From a virus, in the IMG/VR virus record IMGVR_UViG_3300044639_001767: a stretch of 12,558 nucleotides of DNA. One strand, written 5' to 3'. Below the pieces are notes generated by a model. The model saw only the letters and a program-made list of their open reading frames with translations, searched no databases and had not been told where the DNA came from. Below, one piece after another: positions 9,131 to 9,733 of this stretch. Within the stretch, counting starts at the first letter, position 1; the number at the start of each line of letters is the position of its first letter. Made by a program: the position numbers and the translations under genes.

Positions 9131-9733
9131 CTATGTGTTGGACATTGCGTCAACAACAATCCGCTTGACAACCTTGGCCAAACCAGGATTTACAATCAGG
9201 GCATGTGGCATGATGTTGTGACGGATATGGTTGCGCATGAACCTGGTGTCCATGTTGCTGGGATCACCCCACCAAGGCACCTGATTCTTCTCACACCAAC
9301 TCTGCAACTGACTCTTGGTGGTTGTGAGAAAGGGTCTCACAATATTACCATTTTGATAGGCAATGGTGTGATGTTTGCCATGCAGGCAATTGAACAAGTA
9401 GGTTTCCATGCAGTCATCCAGGTGATGAGCTGTGACCACAGTGCCTGGCAACTGGTGGAACCAGGAAATTCTCTGGTTGCGCCAAAATTCTTCCTGGCTT
9501 TCATGCTTGGGTTTGTTGGCTTCCAGCTTGCCCAGCAACAAGGGAATATCCCGCCTGGCACAATAGGCTGTGAGATTTTGTTCACACATGTGCCCATAGA
9601 AAGTTTGATGATTGAAGTAGACAACTGTGACATCATGGCGCCTCTTGAGGAAATCCAAGGCTGCCATACTGTCTACGCCACCAGAACATGCCACATACAA
9701 CCTTGGCGGCAGTGGTGCAACAATTTTGATCAT
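9131..9733 (-). CDS. tilS: tRNA(Ile)-lysidine synthetase-like PP-loop ATP pyrophosphatase (TilS N-terminal catalytic domain only), 200 aa.
   Basis: PP-loop motif SGGVDS (YVACSGGVDSMAAL) plus the TilS-type HHLDDCMETYLFNCLHG motif. It is much shorter than bacterial TilS, having only the catalytic domain. Confidence 0.7.
   Translation of the reverse strand: MIKIVAPLPPRLYVACSGGVDSMAALDFLKRRHDVTVVYFNHQTFYGHMCEQNLTAYCARRDIPLLLGKLEANKPKHESQEEFWRNQRISWFHQLPGTVVTAHHLDDCMETYLFNCLHGKHHTIAYQNGNIVRPFLTTTKSQLQSWCEKNQVPWWGDPSNMDTRFMRNHIRHNIMPHALIVNPGLAKVVKRIVVDAMSNT

What the first reader, a model, noticed from the sequence alone, without database searches (positions are those of the whole stretch)
9131..9733. 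Minimal virus-encoded TilS (lysidine synthetase catalytic domain only)
The ORF has SGGVDS and HHLDDCMETY motifs but only about 200 aa, so it lacks the C-terminal tRNA-recognition domains of bacterial TilS. A virus carrying TilS implies it brings or depends on a tRNA-Ile(CAU) that needs C34 lysidinylation to read AUA codons and not be charged as Met. A stand-alone catalytic domain may have altered tRNA specificity, for example modifying a phage tRNA, or may need a partner protein. Together with PTH2 it marks this island as manipulating translation.
Basis: partly seen in the sequence, partly recalled or inferred. Interest (0 to 1): 0.55.

Follow-up and report, generated by a model that had tools for sequence, protein, structure and literature searches.

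The report
Phage-encoded short lysidine synthetase (TilS)
This phage gene encodes a 200-residue, catalytic-domain-only version of the bacterial enzyme TilS, which retools a CAU-anticodon tRNA to read the isoleucine codon AUA; it belongs to a large phage-only family already annotated in a few jumbo phages, and in many relatives it sits right beside the tRNA it most likely modifies.

Summary
**Observation:** confirmed. Window 9131-9733 (-) is an intact 200-aa ORF with SGGVDS and HHLDDCMETY. It passes the curated TilS N-domain model (TIGR02432, 122.5 bits against a cut-off of 93.6). Its only PDB sequence hits are TilS. A pLDDT-96 model superposes best on TilS N-domains (TMq 0.84-0.87). No C-terminal tRNA-binding domain exists.

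**Family:** it is not a fragment. About 774 clusters at 50% identity, nearly all 180-230 aa, lie on at least 530 viral contigs. They are essentially absent from 185,579 cellular species genomes, where the TilS homologues sampled are 296-504 aa.

**New evidence:** in 15 of 52 family lineages a CAU-anticodon tRNA lies within 150 nt on the same strand (Fisher p = 8.5e-7). All 17 distinct adjacent tRNAs have the tRNA-Ile2 acceptor-stem signature.

**This phage:** its assembled ~26 kb shows only tRNA-Leu and tRNA-Gln. A vault-protein-like gene and an HNH endonuclease occupy the slot where sister phages carry the tRNA.

**Novelty:** phage TilS was reported in MIJ3/PA5oct in 2019 but never characterised, so this is a new member of a known kind. 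The domain-minimal architecture is not covered in the TilS literature I could search, which recognises only types I and II.

**Most likely function:** lysidinylation of tRNA-Ile2(CAU), confidence about 0.7.

The parts
9131..9733 (-). Short TilS coding sequence (200 aa plus TAG stop): N-terminal PP-loop catalytic domain and the first part of the linker helix only.
   Evidence: ORF list; PF01171 1.7e-30; TIGR02432 122.5 bits against cut-off 93.6; PDB hits are TilS only; AF2 pLDDT 96.2; Foldseek top hits are TilS, TMq 0.84-0.87.
9668..9685 (-). PP-loop ATP-binding motif SGGVDS (residues 17-22).
   Evidence: Coordinates verified. S17, G19, D21 and S22 are invariant in 47 family members and in 29 cellular TilS.
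9398..9427 (-). TilS-type HHLDDCMETY motif (residues 103-112).
   Evidence: H103, D107 and E110 are invariant in both the phage family and cellular TilS.
9368..9385 (-). Shortened loop LHGKHH (residues 117-122), replacing the longer cellular 'RGxGxxG' loop. This is a family-specific difference near the active site.
   Evidence: Joint alignment: the cellular Gly (93% conserved) falls in a gap in 100% of phage sequences, and cellular Arg becomes His at residue 118.
9206..9268 (-). GDPSN ... RNHIRHNIMP block (residues 156-176): conserved TilS N-domain residues D157, N160, R167, N168, R171 and P176.
9737..9883 (-). Small upstream ORF (48 aa, signal-peptide-like N-terminus). Its stop lies 3 nt before the TilS ATG. 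Context only.
   Evidence: weak Cor-like PHROG hit, E = 5.7e-3.
6601..9090 (-). Major-vault-protein-like gene (829 aa), starting 40 nt after the TilS stop behind an AAGGAG Shine-Dalgarno. It occupies the slot where sister phages carry tRNA(CAU).
   Evidence: MVP_shoulder 3.7e-19 and Vault_3 3.8e-7; junction sequence; synteny.
10933..10961 (-). Promoter-like site (TTGACA-17-TATATT, 11 of 12) at the head of the probable unit hyp53-hyp243-sp48-TilS-MVP.
   Evidence: The overall count of such sites does not exceed the shuffles, so this is only suggestive.
6548..6573 (-). Intrinsic-terminator-like hairpin (11-bp stem, 8 GC pairs, T-rich tail) just after the MVP-like gene; probable end of the unit.
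10969..12372 (-). Homospermidine synthase (467 aa), syntenic upstream of the short TilS throughout this phage clade. Context.
   Evidence: Pfam Sacchrp_dh_NADP and Sacchrp_dh_C; PDB 2ph5 homospermidine synthase 5.3e-138; synteny.
3594..4061 (+). PTH2-like peptidyl-tRNA hydrolase (155 aa). Context for the 'translation island'.
   Evidence: Pfam PTH2 1.2e-6, 29.2 bits against cut-off 23; NCBIfam hits far below cut-off; conserved in relatives L025 and L090.
5708..6280 (+). HNH homing endonuclease lying between the TilS-MVP unit and the conserved MCD-like gene; part of the inserted block.
   Evidence: phrog_655 homing endonuclease 1.2e-42; a homologous HNH directly follows TilS in L090.

Best explanation
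The gene encodes a functional, phage-specific, N-domain-only member of the TilS family.

**Proposed mechanism.** Like bacterial TilS, the enzyme most likely binds ATP at the PP-loop and adenylates C2 of the wobble cytidine C34 of a CAU-anticodon tRNA-Ile2. It then lets lysine displace AMP to give lysidine. That switches the tRNA from AUG/Met to AUA/Ile identity.

**Recognition.** With no CTD1 or CTD2, it must recognise its tRNA through the anticodon arm alone. It therefore cannot read the acceptor stem as type I TilS does.

**Biological role.** The gene belongs to the translation-support set (tRNAs, PTH2-like hydrolase) of a large phage. Its role is to guarantee maturation of phage-borne (and possibly host) tRNA-Ile2, so that phage AUA codons are read independently of the host TilS.

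**Shown:** family membership of the catalytic domain, absence of the C-terminal domains, virus restriction, and physical linkage of the family to Ile2-type CAU tRNA genes.

**Inferred:** the chemistry, lysine as the amine, anticodon-arm-only recognition, and the existence of a CAU tRNA elsewhere in this particular phage.
For: **Catalytic domain.**
- TIGR02432 is passed above its cut-off.
- The only PDB sequence hits are the three TilS structures, aligned across the whole N-domain.
- The AF2 model (pLDDT 96.2) matches TilS best, at TMq 0.84-0.87 and 24% identity. TtuA follows at TMq 0.66-0.76.
- Almost all residues conserved at 80% or more in 29 cellular TilS N-domains are kept: PP-loop, H42, R85, R88, Y89, TAHHxDDxxET, G119, RPxL, K140, DxSN, RNxxR, P176.

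**A real family under selection.**
- At least 991 clusters at 90% identity and 774 clusters at 50% identity with E <= 1e-30, nearly all 180-230 aa.
- At least 530 IMG/VR contigs.
- Only one close hit among 185,579 cellular species genomes.

**Substrate.**
- Of 52 lineages (70% identity clusters), 15 have a same-strand CAU tRNA within 150 nt of the gene. Ten more have one in the few kb held.
- CAU accounts for 15 of 22 adjacent anticodon types against 11 of 84 non-adjacent ones (odds ratio 14, p = 8.5e-7).
- All 17 distinct adjacent CAU tRNAs have a 3:70 pair other than C:G, and none has a 1:72 mismatch. By the discriminators of PMC1635315 that marks tRNA-Ile2, not tRNA-Met or tRNA-fMet.
- Three of the four phage CAU tRNAs tested (PA5oct CAU2, which is not TilS-adjacent, and the TilS-adjacent tRNAs of L019 and L081) best-match PGAP-annotated E. 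coli tRNA-Ile genes that carry a CAT anticodon.
- Sister phages of the window's clade (L009-13, L025) have the tRNA 37-41 nt after the stop codon.

**Rationale.**
- PA5oct uses AUA at 57-64 per 1000 codons while infecting GC-rich Pseudomonas.
- TilS from a GC-rich bacterium is about 1000-fold less efficient than E. coli TilS (PMC11947777).
- A phage tRNA(CAU) carrying k2C34 has been observed in a T4-like vibriophage (PMC13191261).
Against: - **No CAU tRNA is visible for this phage.** None is in the window or in the about 26 kb assembled for it. Only tRNA-Leu(CAA) and tRNA-Gln(UUG) are seen.
- **AUA demand here is modest.** AUA makes up 21 of 184 Ile codons, or 5.8 per 1000 codons.
- **All characterised TilS need at least CTD1.** Deleting CTD2 alone sharply lowers activity (PMC11947777). 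Activity of an N-domain alone is therefore unproven.
- **Two elements conserved in cellular TilS are missing in every phage member.** These are the Arg of H-x-x-H-x-L-R and the Gly-rich loop after the HHxDDxxET helix. The amine or RNA specificity could therefore differ.
- **Many lineages show no nearby tRNA.** Nineteen of 52 lineages have none in the held flanks.
- **No biochemical data exist** for any phage TilS.
Confidence: 0.7

Rival explanations
1. The target is the same (C34 of a CAU tRNA) but the nucleophile differs. The enzyme attaches an amine other than lysine, for example a polyamine supplied by the syntenic homospermidine synthase. The product would be a new 2-aminocytidine derivative, functionally analogous to lysidine or agmatidine.
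For: - The family uniformly lacks two elements near the active site that are conserved in cellular TilS: the Arg of HxxHxLR and the Gly-rich loop, which is shortened to HGK.
- A bona fide homospermidine synthase (5.3e-138 to 2ph5) lies one to three genes upstream of TilS throughout the window's clade.
- Relatives carry an R2K ATP-grasp gene, an Amidoligase_2 gene or a GGACT gene nearby.
- PA5oct has a saccharopine-dehydrogenase-like fragment inside its tRNA cluster.
- Nature already uses alternative amines at this position: agmatidine and ava2C (PMC11947777).
Against: - The HSS linkage is confined to one phage clade. It is absent from the T4-like group (72 loci) and from L011, L019 and L081, so it may simply be inherited gene order.
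- All other catalytic residues are TilS-like.
- I could not verify which TilS residues bind lysine, because the primary structure papers are not held.
Confidence: 0.07
2. The enzyme is a neofunctionalised PP-loop protein derived from TilS. It acts on something other than tRNA-Ile2 C34, such as another tRNA or position, another RNA, or cytosines in phage DNA.
For: - All tRNA-recognition domains are lost.
- Active-site loop changes are family-specific.
- No CAU tRNA is seen in this phage's assembled DNA.
- More than a third of lineages have no tRNA near the gene.
- In a few lineages the adjacent tRNA is Asn, Leu, Lys or Gly rather than CAU.
Against: - Ile2-type CAU tRNAs are strongly and specifically enriched directly next to the gene in many independent lineages (p = 8.5e-7).
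- The basic and catalytic residues shared by all TilS are retained.
- In at least 2 of the 3 lineages whose only adjacent tRNA is not CAU, a CAU tRNA lies elsewhere in the held DNA.
Confidence: 0.1
3. The enzyme is an indiscriminate lysidine synthetase. Lacking the domains that reject tRNA-Met, it also converts host elongator tRNA-Met(CAU) and so perturbs host translation as a takeover device.
For: - In type I TilS, deleting CTD2 removes 3:70 discrimination (PMC11947777).
- The phage enzyme has neither CTD.
- PA5oct CAU1 (Met-like acceptor stem) and CAU2 (Ile-like acceptor stem) are identical outside the acceptor stem. An anticodon-arm reader could not tell them apart.
Against: - Converting tRNA-Met would also damage translation of the phage's own AUG codons.
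- The delta-CTD2 enzyme still rejected tRNA-Met, so the anticodon arm carries discriminating information.
- The tight pairing with Ile2-type tRNAs points to a cognate substrate.
Confidence: 0.05
4. The gene is a non-functional remnant: a truncated tilS fragment picked up from a host and decaying.
For: It is less than half the length of type I TilS, and no cognate tRNA is seen in this phage's held DNA.
Against: - Hundreds of diverged clusters keep the same length and 29 invariant residues.
- The fold is very confidently predicted.
- Shared indels show a single old origin rather than repeated truncation.
- The exact protein recurs on contigs in 98 blocks of the assembly collection.
Confidence: 0.02

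Closest known systems
Putative TilS of Pseudomonas jumbo phages PA5oct / MIJ3 (QCG76301.1, MIJ3 gp263; PMC6892783)
   Same: - Same family: 43% identity over 97% of the query.
- Same length class: 203 aa.
- Same family-specific indels.
- Encoded by a large phage that also carries CAU tRNAs.
- Annotated as tRNA(Ile)-lysidine synthetase.
   Different: - Different phage group and gene neighbourhood.
- PA5oct has extreme AUA use (57-64 per 1000 codons) against about 6-17 per 1000 here.
- In PA5oct the CAU tRNAs lie 7-10 kb away rather than adjacent.
- Neither protein has been tested. The MIJ3 paper did not discuss the missing domains or link the gene to the three 'tRNA-Met' genes.
Type II bacterial TilS (Aquifex aeolicus, PDB 1wy5 / 2e21 / 2e89; also Mycobacterium, Saccharibacteria)
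   Same: - Best sequence hit (1e-11) and best fold hits (TMq 0.84-0.87).
- Same PP-loop, HHxDDxxET, RPxL, DxSN and RNxxR motifs.
- Like type II, it lacks the acceptor-stem-reading CTD2.
   Different: - Type II still has CTD1 (about 100 aa; total 296-350 aa). The phage protein stops in the linker helix, about 24 residues after the N-domain.
- The phage protein lacks the conserved Arg of HxxHxLR and has a loop 4-8 residues shorter after the HHxDDxxET helix.
Type I bacterial TilS (E. coli 1ni5, Geobacillus kaustophilus 3a2k)
   Same: Homologous catalytic N-domain (3e-9 and 2.5e-9; TMq 0.79). Presumably the same ATP-dependent C34 adenylation chemistry.
   Different: - Type I proteins are 420-504 aa, with CTD1 and CTD2. 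They use acceptor-stem pairs 3:70 to 5:68 as identity elements.
- The phage-adjacent tRNAs have highly variable acceptor stems, consistent with no acceptor-stem readout.
TtuA / TtcA / Ncs6-type tRNA thiolases (same Pfam PF01171 superfamily)
   Same: Same PP-loop ATP pyrophosphatase fold; second-best structural matches (TMq 0.66-0.76).
   Different: - Only 17-19% identity.
- The TtcA HMM scores 18 bits against a cut-off of 272.
- The family has no conserved CxxC or third-Cys pattern (alignment). That such motifs define the Fe-S/zinc thiolases is from my own knowledge.
Archaeal TiaS (agmatidine synthetase)
   Same: Functional analogue: it modifies C34 of tRNA-Ile2(CAU) with an amine so that AUA is read as Ile (PMC11947777; PMC12069591).
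   Different: Unrelated catalytic domain and mechanism. No sequence or fold similarity was found here.

Membership tests
TilS (tRNA-Ile2 lysidine synthetase) | PP-loop ATP-binding motif SGGxDS at the N-terminus | tested here: met
   SGGVDS at residues 17-22. Invariant in the family and in cellular TilS.
TilS (tRNA-Ile2 lysidine synthetase) | Score above the curated cut-off of the TilS N-domain equivalog-domain model (TIGR02432) | tested here: met
   122.5 bits against cut-off 93.6, covering profile positions 2-189 of 189.
TilS (tRNA-Ile2 lysidine synthetase) | TilS-specific conserved N-domain residues (R..RY, TAHHxDDxxET, RPxL, DxSN, RNxxR..P) | tested here: met
   All are present in the window protein, and each is at least 89% conserved in the phage family.
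TilS (tRNA-Ile2 lysidine synthetase) | Fold closest to the TilS N-terminal domain among PP-loop enzymes | tested here: met
   pLDDT 96.2. Foldseek top five hits are TilS, TMq 0.79-0.87; TtuA comes next at 0.66-0.76.
TilS (tRNA-Ile2 lysidine synthetase) | At least one appended C-terminal tRNA-binding domain (CTD1, with or without CTD2), stated for all characterised TilS | tested here: not met
   - The protein ends 24 residues after the N-domain match.
- The full-length model NF007942 scores 56 bits against cut-off 606.
- The cellular homologues sampled are 296-504 aa.
- None of the top 150 family representatives has a CTD-sized C-terminal extension.
- The literature statement is in PMC11947777 and PMC12514573.
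TilS (tRNA-Ile2 lysidine synthetase) | Cellular-TilS conserved Arg of H-x-x-H-x-L-R and Gly-rich loop (RGxGxxG) after the HHxDDxxET helix | tested here: not met
   The Arg (93% conserved in cells) and the Gly (93%) both fall in gaps in 100% of 54 phage sequences. Cellular Arg becomes His at residue 118. The functional role of these elements could not be checked here.
TilS (tRNA-Ile2 lysidine synthetase) | A tRNA-Ile2 with CAU anticodon available as substrate | tested here: inconclusive
   - At family level this is met: an Ile2-type CAU tRNA is adjacent in 15 of 52 lineages and present in the held flanks of 25 of 52.
- For this phage none is seen in the window or in about 26 kb of source contigs.
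- The host is unknown. That bacteria generally have tRNA-Ile2 is established knowledge (PMC1635315).
TilS (tRNA-Ile2 lysidine synthetase) | ATP- and lysine-dependent formation of lysidine at C34 | not testable with these tools
   Needs an enzyme assay and nucleoside mass spectrometry. No phage TilS has been assayed in the literature I searched.
TtcA / TtuA tRNA thiolases | Match to the family HMM, plus conserved cysteines for Fe-S or zinc binding | tested here: not met
   TtcA scores 18.1 bits against cut-off 272. No conserved CxxC pattern appears in the 47-sequence alignment. Structural similarity is only second-best.
QueC / MnmA / LarE / GMP synthase N-domain | Match to the family HMM at or near the curated cut-off | tested here: not met
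   - MnmA: 11.4 bits against cut-off 284.
- LarE: 15.5 bits against cut-off 150.
- QueC-like PHROG: 1.3e-4.
- Fold matches for these families: TMq 0.51 or lower.

The most novel reading that the evidence does not exclude
The phage N-domain-only enzymes are not ordinary lysidine synthetases. Having lost both tRNA-recognition domains and remodelled two loops near the active site, they would attach a different amine to C34 of their co-encoded CAU tRNA. One candidate is a polyamine made by the syntenic homospermidine synthase. The product would be a previously unseen wobble nucleoside that reads AUA.

A milder version is much more likely (about 0.5). In it they are a third architectural class of true TilS that separates tRNA-Ile2 from tRNA-Met with the anticodon arm alone and travels with its tRNA as a portable two-gene AUA-decoding module.
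Probability: 0.06. Interest if true: 0.85.

Novelty: new member of a known kind. Interest (0 to 1): 0.4.

Why it matters
Current TilS enzymology holds that every TilS needs at least one appended domain to find tRNA-Ile2 and reject the look-alike tRNA-Met. How type II enzymes, which lack CTD2, manage this is stated as an open question (PMC11947777).

A natural, abundant, 200-residue N-domain-only family, often encoded next to its probable substrate tRNA, gives a minimal matched enzyme-tRNA pair for testing that question directly.

For phage biology, it shows that large phages carry not only AUA-reading tRNAs but also the enzyme that activates them. That would free AUA decoding from the host's TilS capacity, which can be very low in GC-rich hosts.

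It also suggests that many phage 'tRNA-Met' annotations, PA5oct included, are really tRNA-Ile2.

For this particular window the gene itself is an ordinary member of that family.

Tried and rejected
**Alternative identities rejected**
- Other PP-loop families (TtcA, TtuA, MnmA, QueC, LarE, GMP synthase, NAD synthetase) were tested by HMM and by fold. All were clearly worse than TilS.
- A truncated pseudogene is rejected by the family's uniform length and conservation.

**tRNA searches in or around the window**
- A hidden tRNA or tRNA remnant in the window: ARAGORN and an Rfam E-value scan found none.
- Megablast of the whole window against 50,697 phage records found no match.
- Two exact-pattern scans of metagenome contigs, using the phage's tRNA-Gln and tRNA-Leu genes as probes to extend its known sequence, found no hits.
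- The longest contig carrying the exact protein is 26.6 kb. IMG/VR holds no close relative; the best hit is 56% identical.

**Partner protein**
- A split or neighbouring CTD-like partner was not found.
- The adjacent ORFs are a 48-aa signal-peptide-like protein and an MVP-like protein.
- In the T4-like subgroup the flanking genes are a sigma-like factor and a dsbA-like regulator.
- No neighbour is shared across the family.

**Other checks**
- AUA overuse as the driver is very clear for PA5oct and LR745206 but not for this phage.
- BLAST of the L009-type tRNA (the window's own clade) against E. coli found nothing. Its Ile2 assignment rests on the acceptor-stem rule only.
- The primary TilS structure and review papers (FEBS Lett 2010; PNAS 2005) are not held. 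I therefore could not verify which N-domain loop binds lysine.
- NCBIfam gave no name for the HSS, MVP-like, hyp243 or MCD-like proteins.
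Full report

Yes. Window 9131-9733 on the minus strand is an intact ORF of 200 codons plus a TAG stop. SGGVDS lies at residues 17-22 and HHLDDCMETY at residues 103-112.

- Pfam PF01171 (PP-loop family) matches at E = 1.7e-30.
- The curated NCBIfam equivalog-domain model for the TilS N-domain, TIGR02432, scores 122.5 bits against a cut-off of 93.6 and covers the whole profile.
- Against all PDB sequences, the only hits at E <= 0.01 are the three TilS structures from A. 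aeolicus, G. kaustophilus and E. coli. They align over their complete N-terminal domains.
- An AlphaFold2 model built on a 47-sequence family alignment is very confident (pLDDT 96.2, pTM 0.90).
- Its best Foldseek matches are TilS (TMq 0.79-0.87, 24% identity). TtuA thiolases follow (TMq 0.66-0.76), and LarE, MnmA, NAD synthetase and GMP synthase are far behind.

**2. Architecture**

The TilS N-domain match ends at residue 176. The last 24 residues form one helix that corresponds to the start of the TilS linker helix. There is no room for CTD1 (about 100 aa) or CTD2. The full-length TilS model NF007942 scores only 56 bits against a cut-off of 606.

This is not a truncation artefact:
- The word-indexed search found at least 991 clusters at 90% identity, all about 196-220 aa among the 120 listed.
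- The exhaustive profile search found 774 clusters at 50% identity with E <= 1e-30. The top 150 are 164-363 aa. Only two have N-terminal extensions, and none has a C-terminal extension large enough to be a CTD.
- At least 530 IMG/VR viral contigs encode a member, some of 300-520 kb.
- Among one genome for each of 185,579 bacterial and archaeal species, there is a single close hit (48% identity, on a 3.5-kb MAG contig). All other hits are 34% identical or less.
- The 29 of those cellular hits that I extracted are ordinary TilS proteins of 296-504 aa.

The short form is therefore a phage-restricted clade. Median identity is 51% within the clade and 29.5% to cellular N-domains.

**3. What is kept and what is changed**

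In a joint alignment of 54 phage and 29 cellular sequences, nearly every residue conserved at 80% or more in cellular N-domains is also conserved in the phage family. These are the PP-loop S-G-G-x-D-S-M-A, H42, R85, R88, Y89, T-A-H-H-x-D-D-x-x-E-T, G119, R-P-x-L, K140, D157-x-x-N160, R167-N168-x-x-R171 and P176. The window protein has all of them.

Two consistent differences mark the whole phage clade, including PA5oct and the 630-kb metagenomic phages:
- The Arg of the cellular H-x-x-H-x-L-R motif (93% conserved) is deleted.
- The Gly-rich loop after the HHxDDxxET helix (cellular RGxGxxG) is 4-8 residues shorter and reads HGK.

I could not check from primary sources whether these elements touch lysine or RNA, because those papers are not held.

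**4. Genomic setting in the window**

The window is phage DNA. It carries a tail spike with an S74 chaperone domain and an HNH homing endonuclease, and has no nucleotide match to known phage records.

TilS lies in a run of same-strand genes: hyp53, hyp243, a 48-aa ORF, TilS, and an 829-aa major-vault-protein-like gene. An 11-of-12 promoter-like site (10961-10933) and a strong terminator-like hairpin (6573-6548) bracket the run. The MVP-like gene starts 40 nt after the TilS stop, behind an AAGGAG sequence.

The same protein occurs on contigs of at most 26.6 kb.

tBLASTn places the phage in a clade with contigs of 148-462 kb (L009-13, L025, L090-94). These share the order homospermidine synthase, TilS, MCD-like, PTH2-like, hyp94, HTH_39, hyp153.
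- In L009-13 and L025 a CAU tRNA follows TilS by 37-41 nt.
- In the window that slot is filled by the MVP-like gene, the HNH endonuclease and two small ORFs.
- In L090 a homologous HNH gene sits there instead.

I infer that the tRNA was displaced or lost locally in this lineage. Whether a copy exists elsewhere in the genome is unknown. The held DNA of this phage shows only tRNA-Leu(CAA) and tRNA-Gln(UUG).

**5. The substrate question, answered at family level**

I collected 223 loci from IMG/VR, public assemblies and GenBank and scanned them with ARAGORN. The TilS proteins collapse into 52 clusters at 70% identity:

| Category | Clusters |
|---|---|
| Same-strand CAU tRNA within 150 nt of the gene | 15 |
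| CAU tRNA elsewhere in the few kb held | 10 |
| tRNAs held but no CAU (includes the window's cluster) | 8 |
| No tRNA in the held DNA | 19 |

- Among adjacent tRNA types, CAU accounts for 15 of 22. Among non-adjacent types in the same loci it accounts for 11 of 84. Fisher's exact test gives an odds ratio of 14 and p = 8.5e-7.
- All 17 distinct adjacent CAU tRNA sequences have a 3:70 pair other than C:G (G:C, A:U or U:A), a paired 1:72 and an A73 discriminator. None looks like an elongator tRNA-Met or an initiator.
- The published discriminators say C3:G70 typifies Met and fMet, and that G3, A3, C70 or U70 indicates tRNA-Ile (PMC1635315). By that rule these are tRNA-Ile2. The U3:A70 case is not named explicitly in that paper.
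- The rule is conservative: it misses a genuine E. coli prophage tRNA-Ile2.
- As an independent check, PA5oct CAU2 is 87% identical over its full length to a PGAP-annotated E. coli tRNA-Ile that carries a CAT anticodon.
- The TilS-adjacent tRNAs of L019 and L081 also best-match ileX-type tRNA-Ile(CAT). The L009-type tRNA was too diverged to hit anything.
- The acceptor stems of these tRNAs vary widely, as expected if the enzyme does not read them.

**6. Codon demand**

PA5oct uses AUA at 57-64 per 1000 codons (56-59% of Ile codons), and the 635-kb phage LR745206 at about 38 per 1000. The window's clade uses 9-17 per 1000 by crude ORF calling. The window's curated genes give 5.8 per 1000, or 21 of 184 Ile codons.

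The 'AT-rich phage in a GC-rich host' rationale is therefore compelling for PA5oct. TilS from a GC-rich bacterium is about 1000-fold less efficient than E. coli TilS (PMC11947777). The rationale is only moderate for this phage.

**7. Most likely mechanism**

- *Shown:* the protein is a well-folded TilS-type PP-loop domain with the family's catalytic residues, lacks all appended domains, is phage-specific, and is genetically coupled to Ile2-type CAU tRNAs.
- *Inferred from established TilS chemistry (PMC12069591):* ATP-dependent adenylation of C2 of C34, followed by attack of the lysine epsilon-amine to give lysidine. That makes the tRNA an AUA-reading IleRS substrate.
- *Inferred from the anatomy:* recognition is limited to the anticodon arm. 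The conserved basic C-terminal helix (consensus NPGLxKVVKK) and the usual TilS dimer may help. That TilS is a dimer is my recollection, not tested here.
- No obligatory partner is encoded nearby.
- I put this explanation at about 0.7.

**8. Rivals**

| Rival | Confidence | Main points |
|---|---|---|
| Same target, different amine | about 0.07 | Prompted by the remodelled loops and the clade-wide synteny with a true homospermidine synthase (5.3e-138 to 2ph5). That synteny is confined to one clade. |
| Different substrate altogether | about 0.10 | Weakened by the specific CAU adjacency. |
| Indiscriminate modification that also hits tRNA-Met | about 0.05 | PA5oct CAU1 and CAU2 differ only in the acceptor stem, which is suggestive. 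It would harm the phage's own AUG decoding. |
| Dead remnant | about 0.02 | Contradicted by the family's conservation. |

**9. Comparison with what is known**

- Phage TilS was first highlighted in MIJ3 and PA5oct in 2019 as a 'putative lysidine synthase' of unknown role. That paper did not mention the missing domains or the three co-encoded 'tRNA-Met' genes as candidates (PMC6892783).
- GenBank records annotate the 203-aa gene as TilS.
- TilS genes have also been noted in giant viruses, in Ralstonia phage RsoM2USA (349 aa, a type II length) and in pelagimyophages.
- The T4-like subgroup I found, 72 loci with TilS between a sigma-like gene and the gp43-type polymerase, probably overlaps those pelagimyophages.
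- None of these has been assayed.
- The 2025 enzymology papers recognise only types I and II. [quoted passage not shown]

The window gene is therefore a new member of an already-noticed phage family. The family as a whole is an uncharacterised, domain-minimal variant of TilS.

It fails one literature-defined feature of TilS, the presence of a C-terminal domain. I therefore file it as a TilS-family N-domain protein that most likely works like TilS, not as a proven TilS orthologue.

**10. Verdict**

The family-level finding of enzyme-tRNA coupling and NTD-only architecture makes it a good experimental handle on how tRNA-Ile2 is told apart from tRNA-Met. Interest 0.4.

Noticed in passing
window 6601-9090 (-): An 829-aa major-vault-protein-like gene (Pfam MVP_shoulder 3.7e-19, Vault_3 3.8e-7) that appears co-transcribed with TilS. 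Among relatives it is present only in this phage and in L094 (82% identity). No PHROG or NCBIfam match. A vault-like protein in a phage is unusual.
   Followed up: partly
window 10969-12372 (-); also L009, L025, L090-L094: A bona fide bacterial-type homospermidine synthase (5.3e-138 to PDB 2ph5), syntenic upstream of the short TilS across the whole clade (69-85% identity). Relatives also carry an R2K ATP-grasp gene, an Amidoligase_2 gene and a GGACT gene nearby. PA5oct has a 68-aa 'saccharopine dehydrogenase-like' fragment inside its tRNA cluster.
   Followed up: partly
window 10504-10596 and 12446-12538: A 93-nt direct repeat (95% identical, 1942 nt apart) brackets the hyp53 and homospermidine synthase genes. 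It corresponds to the 5' part of hyp243 and to a second, cut-off copy at the window's end. It may be a paralogue pair or a recombination scar around the HSS cassette.
   Followed up: partly
L009-L013 12466-12539; L025 11882-11957; L090/L091 15935-16009; L094 4141-4845: Relatives of this phage carry a tRNA with a CUA anticodon (an amber suppressor, labelled 'Pyl' by ARAGORN) 1.9-6 kb downstream of TilS. L094 has split release-factor-1 (PCRF/RF-1) ORFs. This hints at stop-codon reassignment in the clade. The window's own genes use TAG as a stop in 4 of 15 cases, with no in-frame TAG.
   Followed up: no
L089 9559-9635, 10040-10116 and 12168-12244 (PA5oct, MK797984.1): PA5oct's three annotated 'tRNA-Met' genes are probably misnamed. 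CAU3 is initiator-like (C1 x A72 mismatch). CAU1 and CAU2 are identical except in the acceptor stem (C3:G70/U4:A69 against G3:C70/A4:U69). CAU2 is 87% identical to an E. coli prophage tRNA-Ile(CAT).
   Followed up: partly
L003 149-318 versus L004 3093-3262: Two strains of the window's phage share the same promoter region and tRNA-Leu(CAA) gene but carry unrelated tRNA-Gln(UUG) genes next to it. tRNA cassettes are therefore exchanged even between near-identical genomes.
   Followed up: no
L081 9133-9533: ARAGORN calls a permuted tmRNA-like gene (tag peptide ANDNVAPRLALAA) directly upstream of the short TilS and its CAU tRNA in this viral contig.
   Followed up: no
L025 10034-10121: The TilS-adjacent CAU tRNA of this relative is 88 nt long with a long variable arm, which is unusual for an Ile or Met tRNA.
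   Followed up: no
L002 2224-2298 (LR745206): The 635-kb metagenomic phage encodes a tRNA-Ile with a UAU anticodon right beside an Ile2-type CAU tRNA and near a short TilS. It thus carries two alternative solutions to AUA decoding in one genome.
   Followed up: no
window 5-2185 (+): A tail-spike or fibre gene built from about 30 tandem 'NTAVG'-type repeats, ending in an S74 intramolecular chaperone domain. It runs off the window's start; relatives reach 1035-1460 aa.
   Followed up: no
L092 3019-4158; L093 2309-3448: A relative phage carries an IS605 OrfB / TnpB (Cas12f-like) gene a few kb upstream of the HSS-TilS block.
   Followed up: no
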